A program made the position numbers and the translations under genes. Below, one piece after another: positions 8,901-59,866 of a stretch of 64,000 bases of DNA. The notes beneath the pieces are model-generated. The model made no database searches. It saw only the letters and a program-made list of their open reading frames with translations, and was not told the origin of the DNA. This DNA is from Tortispora ganteri (taxonomy: Eukaryota): contig PPNB01000008.1 of assembly GCA_003707115.1 (NCBI GenBank), forward strand, positions 186,001 through 250,000, in the 5' to 3' direction. How positions within the stretch are numbered: position 1 is the stretch's first letter; each line of letters begins with the position of its first letter.

Positions 8901-10676
8901 CTAAACAGATCCACCGGACATATTACCTCCAACCAGTCCAGCCAGTTCCAAAATTGCCCTATCTTCATCAAAATTACCTCTTTTCAAATTCACCTCTCGT
9001 CGACGTCTGGCTTCGCGCTCTTCCCACGCCCATTCTTTAGCTTGTGCCGTCAGCTCCTTCTCTCCGCCGCATCCCCAGACTTCTACTTGGCTGATAGAGA
9101 ATACATCTTCCCATTCCTTTGCGGCTGCATATGCAGATCGGCTTCGTCTGTATACACCCTCACCGTCGACGCCGTAGCACCGGAACACCCCGTACTCCAT
9201 TGACTCGTCTATGGTCAACGAAACGGCACCTGGCACGATGCGTTCTCTCGATCCGCTCGGGAAATGCGGTACCGCAGTTCCAAAGCCGAATCCGCCGAGC
9301 ATTGGCGAGTAAAATGCATATGAGTCAGTCGCAGCGCTGGTCTTTGCCGGAAACCATTCTTGAAACGGGTACAATTGGAACAGTTGGCCTTTAGAATCGC
9401 CAAACCCCTTCTTCGAGCTCGAAGTCCATTTTGTATTCAGGAAGCACCCGTAAACCACCTTCCTCGAGTAGCACCCGTCGACGCTAGAACCAGACGATTT
9501 GCCAGTATATACCCATTCATTAAACGTGTCTAGCGACCTGTCTCTCAGTTTCGCGCGCTCGACGACCTCTCCAGACACGATTAGGATCGAAGGCGCATTC
9601 CACTTGAACGCCTTAGATTCAAATGAGCGCATGCTGAACCCATGGTCAGACCCGATGTACAGTTTTTGCAGCCTTCCCCATATAGAATTTCTGCCAAGTG
9701 CGCTGGCTATCTGTGCGGCTGTCGACATATCCATCAGGCAGTCGGAATAGTCGTAGGTGGTAGCGTTATAGTAGGGCAAATTCCGCAGTTCCAGTGATTG
9801 GTCGGTGGCCTGCTCATTAGCAGTGATCTGCGGCGACTGTTTTGGACTAAAAAGGAGATGTTGGAATAACGAAGTGAGTGGCGTAAAGATGTAAGGTGCA
9901 GCGGCGAGGATTCCGTTACAGAACTCCTCGCAAGAAAAGCCCGGATGTAGTGGGTCCCGCGGGCTCAGTCCGTCAGGTCTAAATGTACTGAGTATAGCCG
10001 CCGCACGGTGAGAGTATTTTAACCATTCTGAAGGCTGGAAGTTTTCTACATATGCCGCGATAGGCTGTTCCGGGTCCAGCGGGAATATAGCCAGCAGCAG
10101 GCTAATGAGATCATGCAGCTCTCTTGCGTCGATTCTCCATGATCGATTAGCATTTGACGGCAAGCCGTCTGGGCAGAGGTTATCGTAGTCGGCTATGACG
10201 GATAATTGTGGCCATCCAGCGGCTAAAGATGAGGAATCAAATAAATCTTCAGCGTTATATTCCTTAGCGGCGTCGTCTATCGGGGTGGCAATGGAGAAGA
10301 ACAGAAGGATAAGCGGATCATAGCCTGGGAGAATGTTTGACCGTCTTTCTGGGTCGAGTAGAGCAATTGCCTTTAGCAGGCTTCTCATTGTGAGAGGTTC
10401 TAAGGAATTTGAGGCAATAAAAGGGAAGCTTGCTAGTTTTTCAGCTATTTTGAGAATGATTGGTCTGCAGTTAGTCGATTCAGGTACACCGAAGTAATCC
10501 AGGAGTTTGGAACCAGTCCAGTATTGCTGACCGGCGGTACCATCAGCTAGTGAGACAAAAAGGTCCTTTAATGCCCATAATTCAATCGAACTAAACTGTG
10601 ATAAACATAATCTGGCAAATTCGCCGTTAATTTGGTCTCTTGTGAGACTTTTAGGCGTACTTTGCGTCAACCCCAT
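8901..10676 (-). CDS. RTC5: TLDc-domain protein (restriction of telomere capping 5)
   Basis: Myristoylation-type MGLTQS start; LYIGSDHGFSMRSFESKAFKWNAPSI; EVWGCG; WEEREARRR; DRAILELAGL...SGGSV. Confidence 0.9.
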   Translation of the reverse strand: MGLTQSTPKSLTRDQINGEFARLCLSQFSSIELWALKDLFVSLADGTAGQQYWTGSKLLDYFGVPESTNCRPIILKIAEKLASFPFIASNSLEPLTMRSLLKAIALLDPERRSNILPGYDPLILLFFSIATPIDDAAKEYNAEDLFDSSSLAAGWPQLSVIADYDNLCPDGLPSNANRSWRIDARELHDLISLLLAIFPLDPEQPIAAYVENFQPSEWLKYSHRAAAILSTFRPDGLSPRDPLHPGFSCEEFCNGILAAAPYIFTPLTSLFQHLLFSPKQSPQITANEQATDQSLELRNLPYYNATTYDYSDCLMDMSTAAQIASALGRNSIWGRLQKLYIGSDHGFSMRSFESKAFKWNAPSILIVSGEVVERAKLRDRSLDTFNEWVYTGKSSGSSVDGCYSRKVVYGCFLNTKWTSSSKKGFGDSKGQLFQLYPFQEWFPAKTSAATDSYAFYSPMLGGFGFGTAVPHFPSGSRERIVPGAVSLTIDESMEYGVFRCYGVDGEGVYRRSRSAYAAAKEWEDVFSISQVEVWGCGGEKELTAQAKEWAWEEREARRRREVNLKRGNFDEDRAILELAGLVGGNMSGGSV

Positions 10677-10747
10677 TCAAGTTGTGGAACGGAGCGAAAG
10701 TATATCAGAAACTAAGTTATAAGCTTGATATTAAATCATACACAATT

Positions 10748-14773: not shown

Positions 14774-15736
14774 TTACCTGTCGAAGGTGCAGACGCCTTC
14801 GAGTGCCATGCTGCCGCGGGAATTAGTGGCCCAGACGGTGAGAGCTCCATCCTTCTCGGCAGCGTGAAACTTGACGGGCTCGTCAGGGAATAGCGGGACG
14901 CGGTTGGTGTACTTGTATTGTTTGATCGGCTCAGGCACAAGCGACGACACCCAATGAAGCATTAGGGCTGCCTGGAACGGGCCATGCACGACGACGTCGG
15001 GAAAGTTTTCTGAAGGTCCTGTGGCATACGGAATGTCGTAGTGGATGCGGTGGCCGTTGAAAGACAAAGCCGAAAACCGGAACAAAGCCAAATGTGACGG
15101 GCGAAACTCGATGTCAGCTTTGTACCCCTCTGAGACAGCGACAGGTTCAACGAATTTGCCGATAGTTTTCTTGCGTAAATCAGGTCCCATTTCCGGTATA
15201 TGGATGAGTACTCTATCTTCAAGGATGTGGTACTTCTTTGGATCGTTGCCCAAGTCTACGGGGCCCATCGCACGGTGCTTAGAGATGATCATCTTGCCTA
15301 CCTCTTCGGATCCTTTTATGTCATTAGTGTACTCAATACACCTATTCGGTGAATCTGTGAGTAATGGTTGAGCGCCAAAAGTGATTGAGCCACCGAGCCA
15401 CATTCGCGTAATCAACTTGGACCCGCGTGGTGGGCCAAAAGCCGAATGATACCCATCTTTCTCTAGTAATTTCTCAGGATACGCAGGGTTGAAGAAGGCG
15501 AGATGCGTTCCTGGTCGCAGTGGATCGCCCGGATTTAGGAACGGAATATTTAAGCCGAGTGTATCGTTCAGTACCATGTTCACCATATTGGCATGACTTG
15601 AACTCAATGAATCATACAACCTGACTTTCGGCCCCCCGACCTCTGCAGGCACCACCGCAGCCTCGTATGCATCCTTCACCGCATCCAGTACGCGTGCACG
15701 GTTTAAAGCTAGACTTCGAACTAAAGAAACTCTCAT
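14774..15736 (-). CDS. HTD2: Mitochondrial hydroxyacyl-thioester dehydratase (hotdog fold)
   Basis: RMWLGG, LFRFSALSFNGHRIHYD, VVHGP; presequence-like N-terminus. Confidence 0.82.
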   Translation of the reverse strand: MRVSLVRSLALNRARVLDAVKDAYEAAVVPAEVGGPKVRLYDSLSSSHANMVNMVLNDTLGLNIPFLNPGDPLRPGTHLAFFNPAYPEKLLEKDGYHSAFGPPRGSKLITRMWLGGSITFGAQPLLTDSPNRCIEYTNDIKGSEEVGKMIISKHRAMGPVDLGNDPKKYHILEDRVLIHIPEMGPDLRKKTIGKFVEPVAVSEGYKADIEFRPSHLALFRFSALSFNGHRIHYDIPYATGPSENFPDVVVHGPFQAALMLHWVSSLVPEPIKQYKYTNRVPLFPDEPVKFHAAEKDGALTVWATNSRGSMALEGVCTFDR

Positions 15737-15974
15737 ATTAATAGATAAAAATTGAGCGACATAAGCAACAATTACGCGTCAAATAGGAATATTATTATAA
15801 ATATATATATTCGTTGGTCCTTGAGCCGCACAGAGCAATATAGGGGTACATAGCATTTACCCTTACCCTGACAACCCACGAAATTACATCCAAAAAGTGT
15901 CGCGCTGGACACAGAACCACAACCACCCTTTGTACCTAGTAACCTCTTCTGTACGCGCTACAATATCCTGCACA

Positions 15975-18221
15975 ATGGCTGCTAAACACCGACCAGGATC
16001 AAAAGAAAGTAAGATTAAGACATCTACACAGCCTACAATGCCGTCAAAGGGCAAAGCTTCTACGTGGAATGAACTCACGTCTGGAAAATCCTACAAATTA
16101 GCCTGCATCCTAGTGACTGTGCTGGCATTTTGGCTCCGATTCAGACACATATCTCACCCGGACGAGGTCGTTTTCGACGAAGTCCATTTTGGCAAATTTG
16201 CTTCCTACTACCTTCGTCGCACTTACTTTTTTGATGTACATCCGCCATTCGCCAAAATGCTATTCGCAGCCGTCGGATGGCTCGTCGGCTACAAGGGCCA
16301 GTTCCTCTTCGACAACATCGGCGACAGCTATATAGAAAACAATGTTCCTTATGTGGCCTATCGTGCCCTACCTGCTTTCTTAGGTACCATGACTGTACCC
16401 ACAGTTTTCCTCACTATGAAAGAATGCGGCTATAGCTTGCCTGCCTGTCTAGTCTCTACCGCACTGGTCCTCTTCGACAACGGCCACGTCACACAAACGC
16501 GTCTCATATTGCTTGACTCCACCCTCATCTTCTCTATAGCCTTTTCTATTTACTGTTATGTCAGATTCTACAAAGAAAGACGTCACGCGTTTTCTTTCAA
16601 CTGGTGGAAATGGCTCTTGCTTTCCGGCTTTGCTCTCTCCTGCGTCATCTCTACCAAATACGTTGGGGTATTCACTTTTATCACAATTGGCTCCGCTGTC
16701 GCTATCGATCTTTGGAAATTGCTTGATATAAAATCTGGTCTGACTATTCGTCAGGTTACTAAGCACTTCTCGGCTCGCCTATACTATCTTCTGGTTTTCC
16801 CCTTCTTGATATACCTTTTCTGGTTCTATGTTCACTTTCAAGTGCTTTGCAACTCAGGACCCGGTGATAACTTCATGACACCGGAATTTCAAGAAACGCT
16901 CAATGAAAGTCCTCTCATGAAAGAAGCTCGTCAAGTTAACTACTACGACAAAGTTACCTTGCGTCATTCTAGCACTGAAAATTACTTGCATTCACATGAT
17001 CAGCACTATCCTCTTCGCTACGAAGATGGAAGAGTCTCGTCACAAGGTCAGCAAGTCACTGCTGTTGAAAATCCTGACGGAAACAGCTACTGGATTGTCT
17101 ACCCTTCATTCGACGAAGATGTTCATGTAACCGGTCGTGCTGTTAAGTTTGGCCAACGCGTGCGCTTGTATCATCCTGAAACTAACACTTTCCTGCTTTC
17201 ACACGACGTTGCTTCGCCTTATTACCCTACTAATCAAGAATTCACTGCTGTTAGCCCCGAAAATGCTGCTGAAAGATTTAACTTCACACTTTTTGAGATT
17301 CGTCCCATATACGGCCAGCGCAATGAAGCTGTCAAAACTAAGGCTGGCCTGTTCAGATTTGTGCATGTTCCGTCTAATGTGTGTATGTGGACTCACGATG
17401 ACAAACCTCTTCCTGAGTGGGGTTTTGGCCAATTTGAAGTCAACGGTAACAAGGATATTACTGATCGAACTAATACCTGGTACTTTGATGAGATTATTGA
17501 CCTGCAGGAACCAGAACGATTAAATCCTCCTCCGAAAGAAGTTAAGACTCTTCCCTTTTTGCGAAAATACTTTGAGCTTCAATTTGCTATGTTGGAGCAT
17601 AACAATAAACTCACTTCGTCTCATCCCTATGCTTCGCAGCCTGGAATTTGGCCTATAACCTTAAAAGGTATATCTTTCTGGACCAAGAATGATACACGTG
17701 AACAGATATATCTTATTGGCAACCCTGCCGGATGGATCTTGGAAGTTGTTGTTATAACTCTGTTTGTCCTGATCTCCATTGTCGATTTACTTGCATCACA
17801 AAGAAACGCTTCACCCTTACCAGAAGCTGTGCGCCACAGGTTCTATGCCTCTACGGGATTTTTCATTCTTGCTTGGGCTACGCATTATTTCCCATTTTTC
17901 CTCATGGGACGACAACTGTTTTTGCACCACTATCTTCCCGCTCAAATGTGTGCTGCACTCGCTGCCGGATCCATGCTAGACTTCCTAACGGGAGTGATGC
18001 ACGACCAGGTCGAAGACCGGAACAAAGGATCCAAAGTTTCTGGTTCTTTTGAGTCTAGAGCTTCAACTACAATGGCTTGGATTGCTGCATTTATCATTAT
18101 TTCCACGTTGATAGGAGTATTCTTTTACTTTGCGCCTCTGTCATACGGCACTCCAGGCTTGTCAGTGGAAGAAGTAAAGGAACGAACCTGGCTGCAATTC
18201 AATTTACACTTTGCTAAGTGA
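15975..18221 (+). CDS. PMT4: Protein O-mannosyltransferase, PMT4 subfamily
   Basis: VVFDEVHFGKFASYYL, FFDVHPP, MIR domains, RQLFLHHYLP; first ATG at 15975. Confidence 0.93.
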   Translation: MAAKHRPGSKESKIKTSTQPTMPSKGKASTWNELTSGKSYKLACILVTVLAFWLRFRHISHPDEVVFDEVHFGKFASYYLRRTYFFDVHPPFAKMLFAAVGWLVGYKGQFLFDNIGDSYIENNVPYVAYRALPAFLGTMTVPTVFLTMKECGYSLPACLVSTALVLFDNGHVTQTRLILLDSTLIFSIAFSIYCYVRFYKERRHAFSFNWWKWLLLSGFALSCVISTKYVGVFTFITIGSAVAIDLWKLLDIKSGLTIRQVTKHFSARLYYLLVFPFLIYLFWFYVHFQVLCNSGPGDNFMTPEFQETLNESPLMKEARQVNYYDKVTLRHSSTENYLHSHDQHYPLRYEDGRVSSQGQQVTAVENPDGNSYWIVYPSFDEDVHVTGRAVKFGQRVRLYHPETNTFLLSHDVASPYYPTNQEFTAVSPENAAERFNFTLFEIRPIYGQRNEAVKTKAGLFRFVHVPSNVCMWTHDDKPLPEWGFGQFEVNGNKDITDRTNTWYFDEIIDLQEPERLNPPPKEVKTLPFLRKYFELQFAMLEHNNKLTSSHPYASQPGIWPITLKGISFWTKNDTREQIYLIGNPAGWILEVVVITLFVLISIVDLLASQRNASPLPEAVRHRFYASTGFFILAWATHYFPFFLMGRQLFLHHYLPAQMCAALAAGSMLDFLTGVMHDQVEDRNKGSKVSGSFESRASTTMAWIAAFIIISTLIGVFFYFAPLSYGTPGLSVEEVKERTWLQFNLHFAK

Positions 18222-47996: not shown

Positions 47997-49622
47997 TTAA
48001 AGTAATCCTGTTCCCCGTCGCAACCGTCTGCTAGCCAATATCGGCGTGGTAGAGCAATGGTTAGTCTGACCATTATTATTTTCATCATCATCATCATCAC
48101 CCCCAAGCCATTTGGTGCTAGGCGCTGCATAAGACTGAGACCTGCCGAGTTGCATACTCGACTTGAATCTGTGCATTTCACGCTCGCACGCCTGTGTGTG
48201 ACTCGAATGATCCATTTCCACATACTTTTGTGGATAACATCGATGTCGGTGATCCTTAAAAAACGACGAGTACCCGCCTAACAGAACATATATCTCTGGA
48301 TAATGCAGATAAGGGTATCTGTGTCTGTTCATTTCTCGGTCTAGCTCTCTTAAATATCGTGCAATTAGAGGTGCGCGCCATGCTGAATATTCACAGTGGA
48401 AAACGAGCAATGTTTTCGATTTAGAAGGGTTTCGCAGAAGTAGCTTTTCCACATCCTCCTTTGAGTTTGCGTTTATTGCGCCGAAAATATGACCGCCTGC
48501 ATATTCGTACTCAAAGCGGCAATCTACTATTTGAACTCCGTCGTAATGATCTTTGTAGTGGCCATCGAGAACGCGTATCAGTGTTTCGCAGGTAATGCGT
48601 CTGAACGGTTCTCCTTCCTTTTGTTCAGAAGGCAAGATATGAGGATGCTCTGTCTCTATATTCTGAAAGAAGCTCGCAGGTTCCACAGGCTGTTTAAGCT
48701 CTGTTGGTGTTTTTGAGCTAAGCAAGTCCTGCGGGTGCTGAAACATACTCTGTGTCCTTCTGAATTTGGACGATCTTTTAAGGGCAGGATTCAACTTGTA
48801 ACAGACAGAGGTGTCACCATCAGGCTGGTTGATGGAGATAGTGGGTCTAGCTCGACGGAATGGGTTGATTGGCGAGCCTGAATTACGAAAGGGGGAGTCA
48901 TCCGAGGGCGAGCAACTGGCGATATCATTAATTTCGCGCTTCCTTCCAGAGATAGGGGTGGTCTTAGGGCTGTGGAATATCTCAGCTAGTTCATCTTCAC
49001 CAATTGTGTTAGAGCGCGAATTAGAATGCGAAATTGAAGAGAACAGGGAGGAGGCAGAATGTCGTGAGAATGAGGATGACTTGGAGCACCTTCTGGAAGA
49101 CGGGCCGTTAGCGATATTGTTGAGCGAGCTATAGATTGGTTTCAGCGGGTGACGCAAAAACTTGGAAGAAGGATGCGACAGTGAGTACTTTGCAGTAGGC
49201 GAGAGCGGCACCGGCTCGTGCACTTCGGCGTTCTTTGAAGCGTGCAGGGTGAACGACTGAGTGAGAGACCTTTTTGGAGCCGGGCGTGCAATGTCTGGGG
49301 CGAGATGGAAGTTCTCAGATATGTCAGCCGCGAGAAGGGAGGCAGGGCTGTCACATGATTGAGAAGCAAATGAACGACGATGGATCATGGCAGAGAGAGA
49401 GGAGGACCTGGAGGGCCACAGAGATGGACTTTGAGTGTCTGAGGGTATGGTGAAGTCAGTGTTCTCGTTTTCGTCCTCGTCCTCGTCAAGTGCATGAATT
49501 GTATTCAGAGATGAGGTTAATGTAGAAGATCTGGATAGAGATGGGAGAGAAGAAACCGAACTTCTATTGGAGTGAAACTGCGGGAAGTCATCAGACGGGG
49601 GTTTGAGAGATTGGCTGCTCAT
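47997..49622 (-). CDS. MIH1: Cdc25-type M-phase inducer phosphatase
   Basis: IVDCRFEYEYAGGHI, HCEYSAWRAP active loop, LHYPEIYVLLGGY; Ser-rich regulatory N-terminus. Confidence 0.95.
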   Translation of the reverse strand: MSSQSLKPPSDDFPQFHSNRSSVSSLPSLSRSSTLTSSLNTIHALDEDEDENENTDFTIPSDTQSPSLWPSRSSSLSAMIHRRSFASQSCDSPASLLAADISENFHLAPDIARPAPKRSLTQSFTLHASKNAEVHEPVPLSPTAKYSLSHPSSKFLRHPLKPIYSSLNNIANGPSSRRCSKSSSFSRHSASSLFSSISHSNSRSNTIGEDELAEIFHSPKTTPISGRKREINDIASCSPSDDSPFRNSGSPINPFRRARPTISINQPDGDTSVCYKLNPALKRSSKFRRTQSMFQHPQDLLSSKTPTELKQPVEPASFFQNIETEHPHILPSEQKEGEPFRRITCETLIRVLDGHYKDHYDGVQIVDCRFEYEYAGGHIFGAINANSKEDVEKLLLRNPSKSKTLLVFHCEYSAWRAPLIARYLRELDREMNRHRYPYLHYPEIYVLLGGYSSFFKDHRHRCYPQKYVEMDHSSHTQACEREMHRFKSSMQLGRSQSYAAPSTKWLGGDDDDDENNNGQTNHCSTTPILASRRLRRGTGLL

Positions 49623-54969: not shown

Positions 54970-55104
54970 TTGTTTCTCGTGAATGGTACAAGGTGATAGC
55001 TAGTCCCAACTGTTATGCTCTCTAAGACCTGTTTTTTTTCACCTTACCAGGCCACCACCTAACTCTTATATTCCTTTAAACCTCTTCCCTTCTTTTGTGC
55101 TATA

Positions 55105-57303
55105 ATGCCTCCTAAATCAAAAGTGGCTGGTTCGATAGAAGAGCGACTGAGTGTATATGTTCGCTCGCCAGAGTTTCTGCCGTCTCTTGCATCAATGCCA
55201 CCATACATGGCTGTCGACTCTCTGATCAATTTTGCGCAATCACAGGATTTCTTACTACAACGCACAAAAAAATCTATTCTTGTTAAATCCGCCGAGAAGG
55301 TACTTAGCGAATACATGCAGACTGATACAGAAACTTCACAACAGTTGCCGCCAGAATCCCGCTCCTCGGAACAACCAGACGACCGTTCTATGAACTCATC
55401 CATAGTTGATCTGTGGAAGAAGGACTCCAATAATACCCCTGAACCATCGCGCAAGCGTGATAGGGCAGGAAAGGAATTGAGAAAAAAGCAGGATAGATCC
55501 CCTCCGGCCAATGTCAAATTATCAGATCTTGGTGGAGTTGATTCCACCATCGAAAGAGTGCTCGAACTCATCGCCATGCCCTTGCTACATCCTGAAGTGT
55601 ATATTCACACCGGCATTGATCCACCAAGAGGAGTTTTACTACACGGTCCTCCAGGCTGCGGCAAGACGTTGCTTGCAAATGCAATAGCTGGCGAACTCGG
55701 CGTCCCATTCATATCCATATCTGCACCCTCTGTTATCTCAGGTATGTCTGGAGAATCAGAAAAGAAGATCCGTGAAGTTTTTGATGAAGCACGATCTCTT
55801 GCACCATGTCTAATGTTTATAGATGAAATAGATGCAATTACCCCAAAGAGAGAAAGCGCACAACGAGAAATGGAACGCAGAGTAGTCGCTCAGCTCCTCA
55901 CGTCCATGGATTCTCTCTCCATGGCAAACACTGGCGGACAGGCAGTGGTAATAATAGGCGCTACGAATCGTCCAGACTCACTGGACGCTGCTTTGCGTCG
56001 AGCTGGCCGTTTTGACACTGAAATAGCAATGACAGTGCCCTCAGAAGCGTCACGCGAAAGAATCCTCCGAGTTTTGAGCAAGAAACTCAGAATCACTGGC
56101 AATTTCGATTTCGCTGCTCTAGCGAAAATGACCCCAGGATTTGTAGGCGCCGATCTCAATGCACTCACATCCGCTGCGGGTGTTTGCGCAATCAAAAGAA
56201 TATTCGAGTATCTCAAAGGCACAGAAATTGACACTTCTTCAATGGAAGTGGACGACTCTCCTTCGTCGTTGATAAAGAAGTTTATTGACGCACACCCTGA
56301 TCCTTTAACTCCGGAACAACTAGAACCATTGTCTATCTCGCTTGAAGATTTTATCACGGCCTTACCCACTATTCAGCCTTCATCAAAGCGCGAAGGTTTT
56401 ACGACTGTACCCGATGTAACATGGGCAGACGTCGGTGCACTTGGCCCTATTCGAAAGGAGCTGCAAATGGCTATTGTTCAGCCCATTATGCGTCCAGACC
56501 TTTATAAGTCTGTTGGAATCACTGCACCGTCAGGTGTTCTACTTTGGGGCCCGCCGGGATGCGGCAAAACACTTCTTGCCAAAGCCGTCGCAAACGAATC
56601 TCGTGCGAACTTCATATCTGTGCGAGGTCCTGAGCTACTAAACAAGTATGTAGGTGAATCAGAGCGCGCAGTTAGACAAGTTTTCTTACGTGCACGTGCC
56701 TCTGTACCATGTGTGATATTTTTCGACGAACTGGACGCTTTGGTACCTAAGCGTGACGAAGCACTATCGGAATCATCTGCACGGGTGGTCAATACTCTGC
56801 TAACAGAGCTTGATGGACTGAATGATAGACAAAGTGTTTATGTTATCGGTGCTACGAATCGTCCTGACATGATCGACGCAGCCATGCTAAGACCAGGGCG
56901 ACTGGACAAGCCGCTGTTTGTACAGCTGCCTACCGAAACTGAACGCTACGAAATTTTACGAACTTTGACACGAAAAACGCCACTTTCGGACGATGTTGAT
57001 ATTAAAATATTGGCGGCAGACAACCGTGGACGCAACTTCTCTGGCGCAGATTTGGCTGCGTTAGTGAGGGAGGCTGCAGTGGTAGCTCTGCATGAGAGGA
57101 TATCGAAATCATTAGACAATGAACGTTCAGAGAATGGTATAAGACAATACGAATTGCCGCCACAATACGCTGACGAGAACGAGGAGCAAATAAAGGTCGG
57201 CGCTATACACTTTGAGAAGGCATTTAACAATGTTAAGCCAAGCGTAAGTGATGAAGACCGAGGGAAATACGAACGTCTTAGCCGACAACTAGGATGGAAC
57301 TAA
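55105..57303 (+). CDS. RIX7: Ribosome biogenesis AAA ATPase (NVL)
   Basis: Two AAA domains (GPPGCGKT twice); SGMSGESEKKIR; QPSSKREGF; ELLNKYVGESE. Confidence 0.95.
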   Translation: MPPKSKVAGSIEERLSVYVRSPEFLPSLASMPPYMAVDSLINFAQSQDFLLQRTKKSILVKSAEKVLSEYMQTDTETSQQLPPESRSSEQPDDRSMNSSIVDLWKKDSNNTPEPSRKRDRAGKELRKKQDRSPPANVKLSDLGGVDSTIERVLELIAMPLLHPEVYIHTGIDPPRGVLLHGPPGCGKTLLANAIAGELGVPFISISAPSVISGMSGESEKKIREVFDEARSLAPCLMFIDEIDAITPKRESAQREMERRVVAQLLTSMDSLSMANTGGQAVVIIGATNRPDSLDAALRRAGRFDTEIAMTVPSEASRERILRVLSKKLRITGNFDFAALAKMTPGFVGADLNALTSAAGVCAIKRIFEYLKGTEIDTSSMEVDDSPSSLIKKFIDAHPDPLTPEQLEPLSISLEDFITALPTIQPSSKREGFTTVPDVTWADVGALGPIRKELQMAIVQPIMRPDLYKSVGITAPSGVLLWGPPGCGKTLLAKAVANESRANFISVRGPELLNKYVGESERAVRQVFLRARASVPCVIFFDELDALVPKRDEALSESSARVVNTLLTELDGLNDRQSVYVIGATNRPDMIDAAMLRPGRLDKPLFVQLPTETERYEILRTLTRKTPLSDDVDIKILAADNRGRNFSGADLAALVREAAVVALHERISKSLDNERSENGIRQYELPPQYADENEEQIKVGAIHFEKAFNNVKPSVSDEDRGKYERLSRQLGWN

Positions 57304-57318
57304 AAACTCTGAAGTGGT

Positions 57319-58098
57319 TCACCAGAAATCATCTTCAATATTTTCGGATGTGGTGAGATTAGACGTTTGTCGCATTGAATCTTCGTCAGCAAAGAAATCA
57401 TCATAAGCGGACTGTTGTTGCTTCTTCTTCTGGGCTTCTGCTTCTGCTATTTCTCGCTGCTTTTTCTCTCTTTCTTGCTGTTCCTTTTTCTTTTTGGCGT
57501 TCTGTTCGCGTTGGTAGTCGTTGCGCTCCTTTTGCAGATCCGGGAAAGATTCCTTTTTTGTCTTTTCAAGACGGTTAATAATTGCATTAGTGCGGGTTGG
57601 CACCAATATGCGTTTAACGAGCCGCGGGTTCTTGAACCCTACCTGTCCTGCAACCATACTTCCATCCTTGTGTAAATTTGTCCAAGGCGTGTATATTACG
57701 GTAATATTATCTATTTTGTTGCCTTGTATAGAATTTGCCTTCGTAAGTTGTGCACAGTCCTCGAGCACCTCCATAGGAATGTTCTTCCAATCGTCGTTCT
57801 CTTCGAGACGGAGATAAACATGCGCGGAAGAATGTGCATCTACATGGAACTATTCAGTTAGTCATTATCTTGGAATAAAGTAGATAATACGTACCCTGCA
57901 TTGTTAGTACACTGCCGAACCGCCCAGATCAACTACTACTTACCATACATCGATCGGAAGACCATACTTGATTAAAAGCTCGTCTAATTGTTAGTTTGTG
58001 CAATACAAAACCATGAATACTTACATACTCTCTTCCTTGTGCTTTCCCATATAAAGCTGGTAGCTTTTATTGTGTTTTGAAGTGAAATAATAGACCAT
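57319..58098 (-). CDS. JLP2: NFACT-R domain protein Jlp2/CCDC25, 213 aa; exons 58098-58029, 57983-57944, 57895 (1 nt), 57849-57319
   Basis: Spliced product MVYYFTS...[36 protein letters not shown]...DCAQLTKANSIQGNK...YTPW...GQVGF...EDDFW; 642 nt, frame intact. Confidence 0.92.
57850..57894 (-). other. JLP2 intron 3 (45 nt)
   Basis: GTACGT...GACTAAC-TGAA-TAG. Confidence 0.9.
57896..57943 (-). other. JLP2 intron 2 (48 nt)
   Basis: GTAAGT...TACTAAC-AATG-CAG. Confidence 0.9.
57984..58028 (-). other. JLP2 intron 1 (45 nt)
   Basis: GTATGT...AACTAAC...TAG; removal joins A|AC to give the conserved EN. Confidence 0.92.
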
Positions 58099-58234
58099 TG
58101 CGGTGTGATGTGCAAGAGAAGGTTTTTGTCGGGGTCTCGACAATGCGGGTTAAGGTACCTTTTTAATCATATACTAGACGCTTTAGAAACAAATATACAA
58201 TAATTTTTTCTTTTATTCATAGAAGTTACGCCGA

Positions 58235-59401
58235 TTATGCAGAGGTCGAGCTTTGACCGGCCTCGCCGAGCGTCTCTTCGAGTGCCTTGAGAGCAGCATC
58301 CAACTGGTAGCTGTACGTGGACACAGAAACACCCATATGACCTAAACGAATATAATTCGCAGCTATACCTTTGATCAAACCGCCAGCAAGAAAAACACCT
58401 TTACTTGCAAGCTTGGGGATAACATCGGGGCCGGTCAGTCCATTAGGAAGATAGATAGTAGTTAAGCCGTGAGCCTGATCTTCTGACTTCGAGGGGATCT
58501 GCTTAAGACCCAATCTGGCAACAACAGCTTTGGCCTTGTTTGAGCCTTCAATATGAGCGGCAAAAGTTTTATCGATACCTTGAGCGAGGATCAGTTTCAG
58601 CGAGGCGTGTAGAGCTAATATGTTCTGCACTGCCTGCGTAGAGAAGTACATTGGTTTTCCGTCTTCGTTAGAGCGCATAACAGGTAGCCACTTCGCAAGA
58701 GAAACGTAGTATGCGTGTACAGGCGCCGTGCGATTCTCGAAGGCCGCAATAGCCCGATCCGAGAGCTGCAGAACCGACAGGCCAGCTGGCGCTCCCAGAC
58801 CTTTCTGCGAGGCAGTGAGAACAACGTCAAGATCCCATGCGTCAAAGCGAATCTCCTCAACGGCCACTGAACAGACACCGTCGACTACGATTAAAGTGTT
58901 TGGCGAGACCTTGCGGATGGCCAGAGCGAGGTCTTTGAGCGGGGACAGGACACCGGTAGAAGTGTCGACATGCGTGATGACGACGGCGCGGTACTCAGTG
59001 GCCTTGAGCGCCTCAACAGAACGGTCAACATCAGGAGCGGCACCAAGGTCAAAACGAACGTGATCCACTGAAGCACCGTAAGCGGCTAGACAGTCGGCAA
59101 ATCCATCCGAGAAATAACCGATATTGAGCACTAGGACCTTTTCAGAAGGTTGAATAAGATTAGCTGCAACAACATCCCAGCCTACAGTGCCACCGCCGCT
59201 GAGAATGAGAGGTTGGCCTTTGCCTGGAGTGTTGTCGAGAACCTGTCGAACCATTTTGAGGGTTTCTGAGAAAACCTTGACAAAAGGGCCGGCGACGTGC
59301 GGAACAGACGGAGAAGCCATCGCTTGTGCCACTGAATCGTGGATCTCTATAGGTCCAGGAATCATAGAAAATGTGTGAGAAGGCTGCGATGACTGTTCCA
59401 T
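58235..59401 (-). CDS. AGX1: Alanine-glyoxylate aminotransferase (class V PLP enzyme); first ATG at 59401, possible non-AUG extension to 59446
   Basis: MIPGPIE, GGGTVGWD, THVDTSTGV, VDGVCSV, TASQKGLGAPAGLS, RLGHMG. Confidence 0.93.
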   Translation of the reverse strand: MEQSSQPSHTFSMIPGPIEIHDSVAQAMASPSVPHVAGPFVKVFSETLKMVRQVLDNTPGKGQPLILSGGGTVGWDVVAANLIQPSEKVLVLNIGYFSDGFADCLAAYGASVDHVRFDLGAAPDVDRSVEALKATEYRAVVITHVDTSTGVLSPLKDLALAIRKVSPNTLIVVDGVCSVAVEEIRFDAWDLDVVLTASQKGLGAPAGLSVLQLSDRAIAAFENRTAPVHAYYVSLAKWLPVMRSNEDGKPMYFSTQAVQNILALHASLKLILAQGIDKTFAAHIEGSNKAKAVVARLGLKQIPSKSEDQAHGLTTIYLPNGLTGPDVIPKLASKGVFLAGGLIKGIAANYIRLGHMGVSVSTYSYQLDAALKALEETLGEAGQSSTSA

Positions 59402-59866
59402 GATGTGTGAAGCAATGAGACGAATACGGTGAGCCAGGATGGGCAAGCTCGGCGGTGATGCGAACTTAGTGGAAGTACGAGAAGATAATTAGCGCACTAT
59501 AGAATAATTTCTATAGGATCAAAAGCGTCGAGCAGACAAAGAGACTATGGCTATGAGAGTGTTGGTTTAGCAAGTCTCAGTGGAGTTCGATGTTGAGTCG
59601 GAGAAAACGTAGTCGAATATAGACGATCAGTCAGCAAAAGGGATTGGTAAGAAGGCCCACCGAAGCGATGAATCTTTAAAGGCTGAAAAGAGTGGGGGAA
59701 CCAATAAGTGAAGCCGAGTGGTTCATTTTAGGGCGGTAATAAAGTTCCTACCAATCACACAATACACCTGGTGTGAAATGCCCAGAACCCTGATAGTCGC
59801 CGTTCGACTTCACCTTGCAGCCGGGCTAATATTAAGGGAAACACACGCTGACGCTAGTATTCGAGG

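What the first reader, a model, noticed from the sequence alone, without database searches (positions are those of the whole stretch)
57850..57943. Single-nucleotide exon between two back-to-back introns in JLP2/CCDC25
Seen: the minus strand reads ...GAT GTA TG|GTAAGT..TACTAAC.AATGCAG|G|GTACGT..GACTAAC.TGAATAG|TTC CAT GTA GAT. There are two complete introns (48 and 45 nt), each with its own donor, branch point and acceptor, separated by one G at 57895. That G is the third base of the Trp codon in DVWFH. Known: W-F-H-V-D..[8 protein letters not shown] is the conserved NFACT-R/CCDC25 motif. Excising the 94 nt as one intron gives TGT TCC ATG TAG (frameshift and stop), and retaining either intron gives an in-frame TAA. 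Inference: the only productive mRNA needs sequential, intron-defined splicing around a 1-nt exon. Exon skipping would be a built-in NMD off-switch. This is striking because no other protein gene in the window visibly has an intron, and automated annotation would probably miss it.
Basis: partly seen in the sequence, partly recalled or inferred. Interest (0 to 1): 0.9.

Follow-up and report, generated by a model that had tools for sequence, protein, structure and literature searches.

The report
One-base exon in yeast CCDC25 gene
A budding-yeast gene for the conserved protein CCDC25/Jlp2 most likely needs a single G, lying between two tiny introns, to complete an essential tryptophan codon, and the same one-base exon is present in many distantly related fungi, where it regularly defeats automatic gene annotation.

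Summary
On the minus strand, two complete introns (57943-57896, 48 nt; 57894-57850, 45 nt) flank one G (57895), the third base of the Trp codon in DVWFHVD of a CCDC25/Jlp2 (NFACT-R) gene in a Tortispora-like yeast.

Joining four exons gives a 213-aa protein colinear with orthologues. Every other splicing pattern gives an early stop or deletes Val-Trp.

No RNA data exist for this organism. The main support is comparative. Of 80 fungal and other CCDC25 loci fetched from metagenomes, 23 have the same TG|gt..ag|G|gt..ag|TTY layout. Their intron interiors are unalike, and they group with reference proteins of five Pezizomycotina classes. The other 57 loci encode Trp directly or across one intron.

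The in-frame single-intron shortcuts at these loci reproduce the aberrant database models: 48 of 332 lack Val-Trp, and the Tortispora caseinolytica model starts at FHVD.

One-base exons are already known (Arabidopsis APC11, Fusarium CYP621A, Coprinopsis, Candida snoRNA host transcripts). This is therefore a new member of a known kind. It appears ancient, and it may link intron positions one base apart. The proposed NMD switch is untested.

The parts
58029..58098 (-). Exon 1 (70 nt). ATG at 58098-58096. Encodes MVYYFTS...GKHKEE plus the first base of the Asn codon.
   Evidence: The N-terminus aligns with orthologues.
57984..58028 (-). Intron 1 (45 nt): GTATGT..AACTAAC(57996-57990)..TTAG, phase 1. 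Many metagenome loci have an intron at the same position (GAG A|gt..ag|AY GAG).
   Evidence: The position was compared by eye.
57944..57983 (-). Exon 2 (40 nt). Encodes (N)[12 protein letters not shown] plus TG of the Trp codon.
57896..57943 (-). Intron 2 (48 nt): donor GTAAGT, branch TACTAAC (57909-57903), acceptor GCAG. Phase 2, inside the Trp codon.
57895..57895 (-). Exon 3: one nucleotide, G, the third base of the TGG (Trp) codon of DVWFHVD. It sits in the context AG|G|GT.
   Evidence: The same AG|G|GT occurs in 22 complete and 1 truncated orthologous loci.
57850..57894 (-). Intron 3 (45 nt): donor GTACGT, branch GACTAAC (57863-57857), acceptor ATAG. Phase 0, between the Trp and Phe codons.
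57319..57849 (-). Exon 4 (528 nt coding plus stop at 57321-57319): [14 protein letters not shown]... to the C-terminal DDFW.
   Evidence: ORF. Pfam NFACT-R_1 E=6.7e-21. 94% identical to T. caseinolytica CANCADRAFT_18463.
57943..57948 (-). Alternative in-frame donor GTATGG (Val codon plus TGG). Used with the 57850 acceptor it would remove 99 nt and delete Val-Trp (rival model).
   Evidence: donor@-5, acc@+0, length 99. (dVW, 211 aa).

Best explanation
The gene at 58098-57319 (minus strand) is the CCDC25/JLP2 orthologue of a Tortispora-like (Trigonopsidaceae) budding yeast. It has four exons of 70, 40, 1 and 531 nt.

The third exon is a single G between two short, complete spliceosomal introns. 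The mature mRNA is made by removing both introns. This joins ...GTA TG + G + TTC CAT... and restores the Trp of the conserved DVWFHVD strand of the NFACT-R domain.

The 3' splice site and branch point of intron 2 lie within about 10 nt of the 5' splice site of intron 3. I therefore infer that the two introns are removed one after the other by intron definition. After either is removed, the other still has canonical flanks (TGG|GTACGT or GCAG|GTTC), so either order gives the same mRNA. Upstream-first is my guess if splicing follows transcription.

What is shown: the sequence anatomy, the reading-frame logic, and conservation of the layout in distant fungi. What is inferred: that this yeast splices it this way, and the order of removal.

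The layout is not peculiar to this yeast. It appears to be an old feature of the ascomycete CCDC25 gene that many lineages later simplified, either to one intron or to none.
For: 1. Anatomy. There are two full sets of donor, TACTAAC-type branch and acceptor, each with the branch A 8 nt from the 3' end.

2. Frame.
- Only the four-exon join gives an open 213-aa product, the usual orthologue length.
- That product aligns with 11 orthologues without a gap at the junction, with 26-35 of the first 46 residues identical.
- Exon 4 is NFACT-R_1.

3. Orthologous DNA. The metagenome scan found 509 relatives and kept 80. Of these 80 loci:
- 22 show TG|gt..ag|G|gt..ag|TTY, and L005, cut at the contig end, shows the ..cag|G|gtatga.. 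half. Halves are 49-90 and 48-163 nt.
- 8 have one phase-0 intron after TGG.
- 1 has one phase-2 intron.
- 48 have none.
So 57 of 57 loci without the two-intron layout encode Trp directly before Phe.

4. Intron interiors are unalike. Median aligned identity is 0.44 and 0.33 over 210 pairs, against 0.82 for 22 nt of flanking exon. A central AGGGT is expected in about 2% of shuffles per sequence, yet it is present in 21 of 21 distinct sequences. These sequences are related, so this is not a p-value.

5. No single GT-AG intron gives D[V/I]W|FH in 0 of 21 distinct sequences. L035 has no in-frame single-intron solution at all. L035 and L051, which have Ile instead of Val, lack the GTNTGG shortcut but keep the layout.

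6. The in-frame shortcuts found ('ED|FHVD', 'EDVC|AHIY', one extra residue after W) are exactly the odd database models.
- 48 of 332 proteins lack VW.
- Coniochaeta hoffmannii P0328 reads EEDVC|AHIY and is 100% identical over 119 aa to L005.
- Terfezia P0111 lacks VW, and L035 is 94% identical to it.
- The T. caseinolytica model starts at F.

7. Breadth. In the tree, the one-base-exon loci sit beside Eurotiomycete, Lichinomycete, Pezizomycete, Sordariomycete and Dothideomycete references, plus Tortispora. Five lineages were checked; the class labels of the other reference genera are recalled.

8. Precedent. One-base exons are spliced accurately in Arabidopsis (PMC4674806, passages), in Fusarium (PMC12940212, passages; also AGGGT), and in Candida parapsilosis-group snoRNA host transcripts with RNA-seq (PMC5033589, passages).

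9. The uninterrupted short contig L002 is 100% identical over 175 aa to Tuber melanosporum models that all fail at this junction. L002 reads ..GAT ATA TGG TTT.., which is indirect mRNA-level support in a related architecture.
Against: No RNA from this organism or from T. caseinolytica could be examined, so the junction GTATGG|TTCCAT is not observed here.

The metagenome loci are unnamed and their mRNAs were not seen. No same-species pair of a one-base-exon locus and a transcript was found among the 80 loci and 332 proteins.

An in-frame alternative exists in this window: the GTATGG donor, giving a 211-aa product.

The tree is a quick, weakly resolved one (44 of 113 inner branches open). The class labels of most reference genera are recalled, not computed.

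The read check may rest on the same reads as the assembly.
Confidence: 0.85

Rival explanations
1. A single 99-nt intron. The spliceosome uses the GTATGG donor at 57948, the GACTAAC branch and the acceptor at 57850. This joins GAT|TTC and gives a 211-aa protein without Val-Trp. On this reading the inner signals (GCAG, G, GTACGT, TACTAAC) are accidental.
For: This is the only single-intron solution that keeps the motif FHVD in frame and gives an open 211-aa product. Annotation pipelines chose this form in 48 of 332 database proteins. The Pfam score of such a form is still far above the cut-off: P0301 scores 107.1 bits.
Against: It deletes a Trp that is encoded in 57 of 57 loci lacking the two-intron layout.

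Loci with Ile instead of Val (L035, L051) have no such donor, yet keep AG|G|GT.

It leaves unexplained a second full signal set that is conserved in 21 of 21 distinct sequences while the intron interiors diverge.

P0301 and P0302 are 99% identical and differ only by VW, so the deleted form looks like a choice of the gene model. It costs about 10 bits against NFACT-R_1.

GTATGG departs from the three donors actually paired with branch sites in this gene.
Confidence: 0.07
2. A regulatory splicing switch. A sizeable, condition-dependent share of transcripts skips the G (TG|TTC) or retains an intron, meets an early stop and is degraded by NMD. On this reading the one-base exon is kept because it tunes Jlp2 output.
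For: All three non-productive patterns give stops at codons 38-47. The layout has been retained in many lineages.
Against: Nothing here measures isoform ratios. The layout was lost repeatedly (48 loci with no intron, 8 with one phase-0 intron), which argues against an indispensable function. Retention of old introns needs no function. Short introns with strong branch sites favour pairing of each donor with the nearest branch site (inference).
Confidence: 0.12
3. An artefact or a dead gene: either a one-base assembly error inside one ordinary intron, or a decaying pseudogene whose frame no longer matters.
For: A single-base indel would mimic the frame problem. No expression data are available.
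Against: Contigs rebuilt from reads at depth 88 are identical over 901 nt (not independent). The same layout recurs in 20 other distinct sequences from unrelated samples. Exon 4 is an intact 176-codon ORF, 94% identical to the T. caseinolytica protein. The T. caseinolytica model also begins exactly at FHVD.
Confidence: 0.02

Closest known systems
Arabidopsis thaliana APC11 single-nucleotide exon (Guo & Liu 2015, PMC4674806; passages read)
   Same: One exonic nucleotide lies between two GT-AG introns and is needed for the reading frame. It was mis-annotated in the database. The authors propose intron definition with stepwise removal.
   Different: There the nucleotide is an A inside a 422-nt region of one plant gene, and it was proven by cDNA and reporter mutants. 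Here it is a G fixed by a Trp codon, the introns are 45-48 nt with yeast-type TACTAAC branches, no experiment exists, and the layout is shared by many distant fungi.
Fusarium CYP621A one-nucleotide exon (Nelson & Syed 2026, PMC12940212; passages read)
   Same: It is fungal, has the same AG|G|GT context, completes a codon of a conserved motif, and was inferred by comparative genomics. Gene models are wrong at the site.
   Different: It is confined to one genus and a P450 subfamily, and is backed by SRA reads. The paper calls it the first case in a fungal gene. The CCDC25 case groups with five Pezizomycotina classes plus a budding yeast, but lacks read support here.
Single-base exons in snoRNA host transcripts of the Candida parapsilosis group (PMC5033589; passages read)
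   Same: It is in Saccharomycotina. [quoted passage not shown] This shows that a budding-yeast spliceosome can handle the layout.
   Different: Those exons are non-coding, so the retained base has no reading frame to keep. Here the base completes a codon in a protein-coding gene.
[D1,2]/[A2,3] stwintrons and the 1-nt intron shift (Fekete et al. 2017, PMC5587772; abstract and sections 3, 15, 16 read)
   Same: Both are complex intervening sequences removed by two consecutive U2 reactions under intron definition. In both, orthologues carry phase-0 or phase-2 introns one base apart at the same codon.
   Different: In a stwintron the inner intron interrupts a splice signal of the outer one, and the two inner introns overlap by one G (..A-G-T..). 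Here both introns are complete and are separated by one G (..AG-G-GT..). No splice site has to be regenerated.
Coprinopsis cinerea long-read annotation: thirteen 1-nt exons in 13 genes (PMC12230235; passages read; three supplementary text files searched, 0 hits for CCDC25/NFACT/DUF814)
   Same: It shows that 1-nt exons occur repeatedly in a fungal genome when long reads are used.
   Different: It is a basidiomycete. The genes are not named in what I could read, and no conservation is claimed.

Membership tests
Single-nucleotide exon between two spliceosomal introns | Two complete introns, each with its own GT donor, branch site and AG acceptor | tested here: met
   GTAAGT/TACTAAC/CAG and GTACGT/GACTAAC/TAG, 48 and 45 nt.
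Single-nucleotide exon between two spliceosomal introns | Exactly one nucleotide between the upstream acceptor and the downstream donor | tested here: met
   G at 57895 in AG|G|GT. Unchanged in contigs rebuilt from reads.
Single-nucleotide exon between two spliceosomal introns | The nucleotide is required for the reading frame or a conserved codon | tested here: met
   Only the join that includes the G gives the 213-aa ORF. Skipping it gives a stop at codon 40. No single-intron solution restores D[V/I]W|FH in 0 of 21 sequences.
Single-nucleotide exon between two spliceosomal introns | The architecture is conserved in orthologues while the intron sequence diverges | tested here: met
   23 of 80 loci. 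Intron identity 0.44 and 0.33 against 0.82 for exon flanks.
Single-nucleotide exon between two spliceosomal introns | cDNA or RNA reads across the exon2-G-exon4 junction | not testable with these tools
   No RNA holder was listed for the stretch. No whole genome or relatives' genomes are held.
Stwintron (spliceosomal twin intron) | An inner intron interrupts the donor, branch or acceptor element of an outer intron, so the outer intron exists only after the first splicing | tested here: not met
   Both introns are intact in the primary sequence. After the first AG comes G, not T, so no [D1,2] reading is possible (definition from PMC5587772 section 3).
Zero-nucleotide recursive splicing (ratchet point) | AG|GT junction with no exonic nucleotide kept | tested here: not met
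   One G is kept between AG and GT. Dropping it breaks the frame.
NFACT-R / CCDC25 / Jlp2 protein family (Pfam PF05670) | Match to NFACT-R_1 above the gathering score, with full-length colinearity with CCDC25 orthologues | tested here: met
   Exon 4 alone scores 75.4 bits against a cut-off of 29.8. There are 1641 homologues. The full product aligns end to end. The name JLP2 for the S. cerevisiae orthologue is recalled; one database record is labelled 'Jlp2p' (P0045).

The most novel reading that the evidence does not exclude
The one-base exon of CCDC25 arose once, before budding yeasts and filamentous ascomycetes separated. It has been kept for hundreds of millions of years in at least six lineages.

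It is also the living intermediate of a one-base 'intron slide'. An old phase-2 intron inside the Trp codon acquired an abutting phase-0 neighbour. That phase-2 intron is also seen as a single intron in the animal- or plant-like locus L057, and is inferred from ..cag|G read-throughs in non-fungal fragments. Later loss of one or the other intron left orthologues whose single introns lie one base apart: 8 phase-0 loci, and phase-2 forms such as P0178. Loss of both left the 48 intronless loci.

This would be a second route to a 1-nt intron shift, distinct from the stwintron route. It would also make this yeast a tractable system for asking how small an exon a yeast-type spliceosome can define.
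Probability: 0.45. Interest if true: 0.75.

Novelty: new member of a known kind. Interest (0 to 1): 0.65.

Why it matters
1. It adds a protein-coding one-base exon in the budding-yeast subphylum. [quoted passage not shown]

2. It is not a single-species curiosity. The same layout in distant ascomycetes would make it, to my knowledge, the most widely conserved one-base exon described so far. My searches found no paper on it. In one search, none of the 15 listed papers, out of 23 holding at least three of the four terms, contained 'CCDC25'.

3. It explains a systematic annotation error. Dozens of public CCDC25 models lack Val-Trp, carry junk residues or are truncated at FHVD.

4. All four states occur at one codon: two introns, phase-0 only, phase-2 only, and none. 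This offers a natural series for studying one-base intron shifts.

Tried and rejected
RNA evidence: the look-up of sequencing runs listed no RNA holder. Only two DNA runs hold the stretch. They have equal depth and contig length, so they are probably one data set and possibly the source of the assembly. The other four listed runs hold next to none of the words.

Whole genome and relatives: none is held for this window. I therefore made no genome-wide intron census and could not get T. caseinolytica DNA.

Earlier notes of this scan: nothing for this place or for CCDC25/JLP2. A word search returned only two group-I-intron micro-exon cases in a virus and a phage, which do not bear on this.

Transcript pairing: I looked for a transcript-like protein or contig at least 88-97% identical to a one-base-exon locus. 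Only ORF fragments or mis-modelled proteins matched, and no same-species mRNA was found. The Tuber pair (L002 against P0052/P0047) is suggestive, but I hold no Tuber genomic DNA.

Reading residues before FHVD in truncated models: I took Q/K to mean NAG|TTC and R to mean AG|G TTC, as a proxy for intron phase. This is useful as a lead, but back-translation is ambiguous. Some pairs (Sporothrix P0309/P0310, Apiospora P0271/P0273) could not be reconciled without DNA.

Stwintron and zero-nt recursive readings: considered and rejected on the sequence (see the membership test).

Supplement search of the Coprinopsis paper for this gene: 0 hits in 3 held files. The list of its thirteen 1-nt-exon genes was not visible to me.

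Relaxed intron scan of the window: mostly chance hits inside open ORFs. Seven candidates break an ORF; the four I single out are 10741-10612(-), 15866-15721(-), 16157-16091(-) and 48841-48949(+). None was followed up.

No structure prediction, complex prediction or RNA-family search was run. None would bear on the question.

Full report
**What is in the window**

The minus strand between 58098 and 57319 carries a gene whose last exon is an open 176-codon frame beginning [14 protein letters not shown]. That exon matches Pfam NFACT-R_1 (75.4 bits against a cut-off of 29.8).

- exon 2 ends ..GAT GTA TG at 57944;
- a 48-nt intron follows (57943-57896: GTAAGT .. TACTAAC AATGCAG);
- then one G (57895);
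- then a 45-nt intron (57894-57850: GTACGT .. GACTAAC TGAATAG);
- then TTC CAT GTA GAT.

A third intron of the same type lies further upstream (58028-57984: GTATGT .. AACTAAC AATTAG). In all three the branch A lies 7-8 nt from the 3' end.

A strict donor-branch-acceptor pattern occurs only 8 times on both strands of the 64-kb window, and 4 of those hits are in this gene.

The flanking genes are a class-V aminotransferase (59488-58238, minus strand) and a two-domain AAA ATPase (55063-57300, plus strand).

**Reading-frame logic**

Joining 70+40+1+531 nt gives 642 nt, a 213-aa protein. The alternatives:
- leaving out the G gives a stop at codon 40;
- keeping intron 2 gives a stop at codon 38;
- keeping intron 3 gives a stop at codon 47.

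The 213-aa product aligns end to end with 11 orthologues. In its first 46 residues, 26-35 are identical, and there is no gap at D-V-W-F-H-V-D.

One in-frame single-intron alternative keeps the FHVD motif. A GTATGG donor at 57948, used with the acceptor at 57850, removes 99 nt and deletes Val-Trp. The other in-frame solution also removes FHV.

**Which organism**

The closest database protein is 'CANCADRAFT_18463, partial' of Tortispora caseinolytica. It is 94% identical. It starts exactly at the F of FHVD, so that annotation failed to reach the upstream exons. Tortispora is a Trigonopsidaceae budding yeast.

**Sequence quality**

No whole genome is held for the window, and no RNA run holds the stretch.

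Contigs rebuilt from reads of two runs match 57300-58200 without a difference at depth 88. The two runs look like one data set and may be the source of the assembly. An assembly indel is therefore unlikely, but this check is not independent.

**Orthologous DNA: the decisive evidence available**

The protein searches showed many truncated or odd CCDC25 models that diverge exactly before FHVD. I therefore fetched DNA of relatives from metagenome contigs. The scan found 509 relatives and kept the best 80.

I read the DNA upstream of the Phe codon in each locus. The 80 loci fall into four classes:

| Class | Loci |
|---|---|
| ..GTN/ATH TG\|gt..ag\|G\|gt..ag\|TTY CAY (same layout as the window) | 22, plus L005 (cut by its contig end; shows ..cag\|G\|gtatga..ctag\|TTC) |
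| One phase-0 intron after TGG | 8 (L043, L045, L058, L060, L061, L064, L070, L071) |
| One 492-nt phase-2 intron, TG\|..cag\|G | 1 (L057) |
| No intron at this site | 48 |

So all 57 loci without the two-intron layout encode Trp directly before Phe.

In the one-base-exon class the two halves are 49-90 and 48-163 nt. These are normal fungal intron sizes, and each half starts with GT and ends with AG.

The intron interiors are not conserved. Median aligned identity is 0.44 and 0.33 over 210 pairs, against 0.82 for 22 nt of flanking exon.

A centrally placed AGGGT appears in about 2% of shuffles of each intervening sequence. It is present in all 21 distinct sequences, counting the window and 20 loci. 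The loci are homologous, so this is not a probability. It does show that the five bases are held constant while everything around them drifts.

**Why the single-intron rival fails**

I enumerated every GT..AG pair that keeps the downstream frame open. None of the 21 distinct sequences has a single intron that yields D[V/I]W|FH.
- 19 of 21 offer the Val-Trp-deleting shortcut.
- The two loci with Ile instead of Val (L035, L051) lack it.
- L035 has no in-frame single-intron solution of any kind.

The shortcuts reproduce the aberrant public models:
- 'ED|FHVD' occurs in 48 of 332 collected proteins.
- 'EDVC|AHIY' occurs in Coniochaeta hoffmannii P0328, which is 100% identical over 119 aa to the one-base-exon locus L005.
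- Forms with one extra residue after W occur too (P0048, P0072).

P0301 and P0302 are 99% identical and differ only by Val-Trp. The shorter one scores 10 bits lower against NFACT-R_1.

The rival model is therefore what gene finders produce when they cannot represent a one-base exon.

**Indirect mRNA evidence**

Some short, uninterrupted contigs in the collection behave as transcripts:
- L004 is nearly identical to the phase-0 locus L058.
- L059 is identical in protein to the phase-2 locus L057.
- L002 is 100% identical over 175 aa to Tuber melanosporum models.

L002 reads ..GAT ATA TGG TTT CAC... Yet all five non-transcript Tuberaceae models (four named, one unnamed) fail at this junction. Several of them read through an intron end ..AAG|TTT. 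This is what a one-base exon would cause. Without Tuber genomic DNA it remains indirect.

**Breadth and history**

I built a quick maximum-likelihood tree of 128 rows, with weak deep support. In it the one-base-exon loci lie beside references from Eurotiomycetes (Penicillium), Lichinomycetes (Lichina), Pezizomycetes (Terfezia; L035 is 94% identical), Sordariomycetes (10 loci; Coniochaeta 100%) and Dothideomycetes. The window groups with T. caseinolytica. Five of these lineages were checked. The other class labels are recalled.

Six independent inventions of the same AG|G|GT at the same codon are far less likely than one origin followed by losses. The phase-0 and intronless loci nested among Dothideomycete-like rows fit this.

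The phase-2 position alone also occurs:
- in L057, whose protein resembles animal and plant sequences;
- by inference from ..tgcag|G read-throughs, in seven non-fungal-looking fragments (P0211-P0235);
- in the fungal fragment P0178, whose 69-nt in-frame intron can be read off the protein.

This suggests, but does not prove, that intron 2 is the older one and intron 3 the addition. Single introns one base apart in different fungi would then be what remains after losing one or the other.

**Mechanism**

Shown: two complete introns separated by one G, and a conserved need for that G.

Inferred: the branch site of intron 2 lies 9 nt from the donor of intron 3, and its acceptor 1 nt from it. Two spliceosomes can hardly assemble at once, so removal is stepwise under intron definition.

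Either order leaves a canonical partner: TGG|GTACGT after intron 2 goes, or GCAG|GTTC after intron 3 goes. G suits both the +1 position of an acceptor and the -1 position of a donor. The Fusarium case has the same AGGGT.

The Arabidopsis authors reach the same stepwise model. RNA-seq in Candida parapsilosis-group yeasts shows single-base exons between introns of snoRNA host transcripts being spliced.

Repeated loss of the layout argues against an indispensable role.

**Comparison with what is known**

One-base exons have been described in:
- Arabidopsis APC11 (PMC4674806);
- Fusarium CYP621A (PMC12940212, which calls itself the second case overall and the first in a fungal gene);
- Coprinopsis cinerea, with 13 such exons (PMC12230235);
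- non-coding Candida transcripts (PMC5033589).

Stwintrons and their one-base intron shift (PMC5587772) are the nearest 'complex intron' family. Their defining feature, an interrupted splice signal, is absent here.

Searches for one-base-exon phrases and for CCDC25 with intron terms found no report of this case.

I therefore file it as a new member of a known kind. Its unusually deep conservation and its possible role in intron shifting are the points of interest.

**Limits**

- No RNA from this yeast could be examined.
- No genomic DNA of named relatives could be fetched.
- The metagenome loci are anonymous.
- The tree is only a guide.
- Phases inferred from protein read-throughs are leads.
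- Supplements of the Coprinopsis paper that might list its one-base-exon genes were not visible beyond three small text files.

Noticed in passing
Database proteins P0010, P0014, P0019, P0301, P0309 and others: 48 of 332 collected fungal CCDC25 models lack Val-Trp (211 instead of 213 aa). Others carry 1-10 junk residues or start at FHVD. One species can have several lengths: Apiospora arundinis 211/216/222 aa, Sporothrix schenckii 211/216 aa. This is a systematic annotation error at this one codon.
   Followed up: partly
L043, L045, L070, L071: A group of loci with a single phase-0 intron of only about 34-35 nt at the Trp|Phe site. They branch near the base of the ascomycete rows. The organism is unknown, and the introns are unusually short.
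   Followed up: no
L057 and L059: An AT-rich locus with a 492-nt phase-2 intron inside the Trp codon, and an uninterrupted contig encoding the identical protein. They look like a genomic and mRNA pair from a non-ascomycete, with animal- or plant-like protein similarity.
   Followed up: partly
window 10612-10741 (-), 15721-15866 (-), 16091-16157 (-), 48841-48949 (+): A relaxed intron-pattern scan gives a few candidates that break an ORF near a possible 5' end.
   Followed up: no
window 55063-57300 (+) and 58238-59488 (-): The neighbours of the gene are a two-domain AAA ATPase (AAA, 308 bits, two stretches), convergent with it, and a class-V aminotransferase upstream on the same strand.
   Followed up: partly
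window 57984-58028 (-) and many loci: Intron 1 of the gene (phase 1, in ..GAG A|..|AY GAG..) lies at the same position as an intron in most filamentous-fungal loci. This yeast has therefore kept at least three old intron positions in one small gene.
   Followed up: partly
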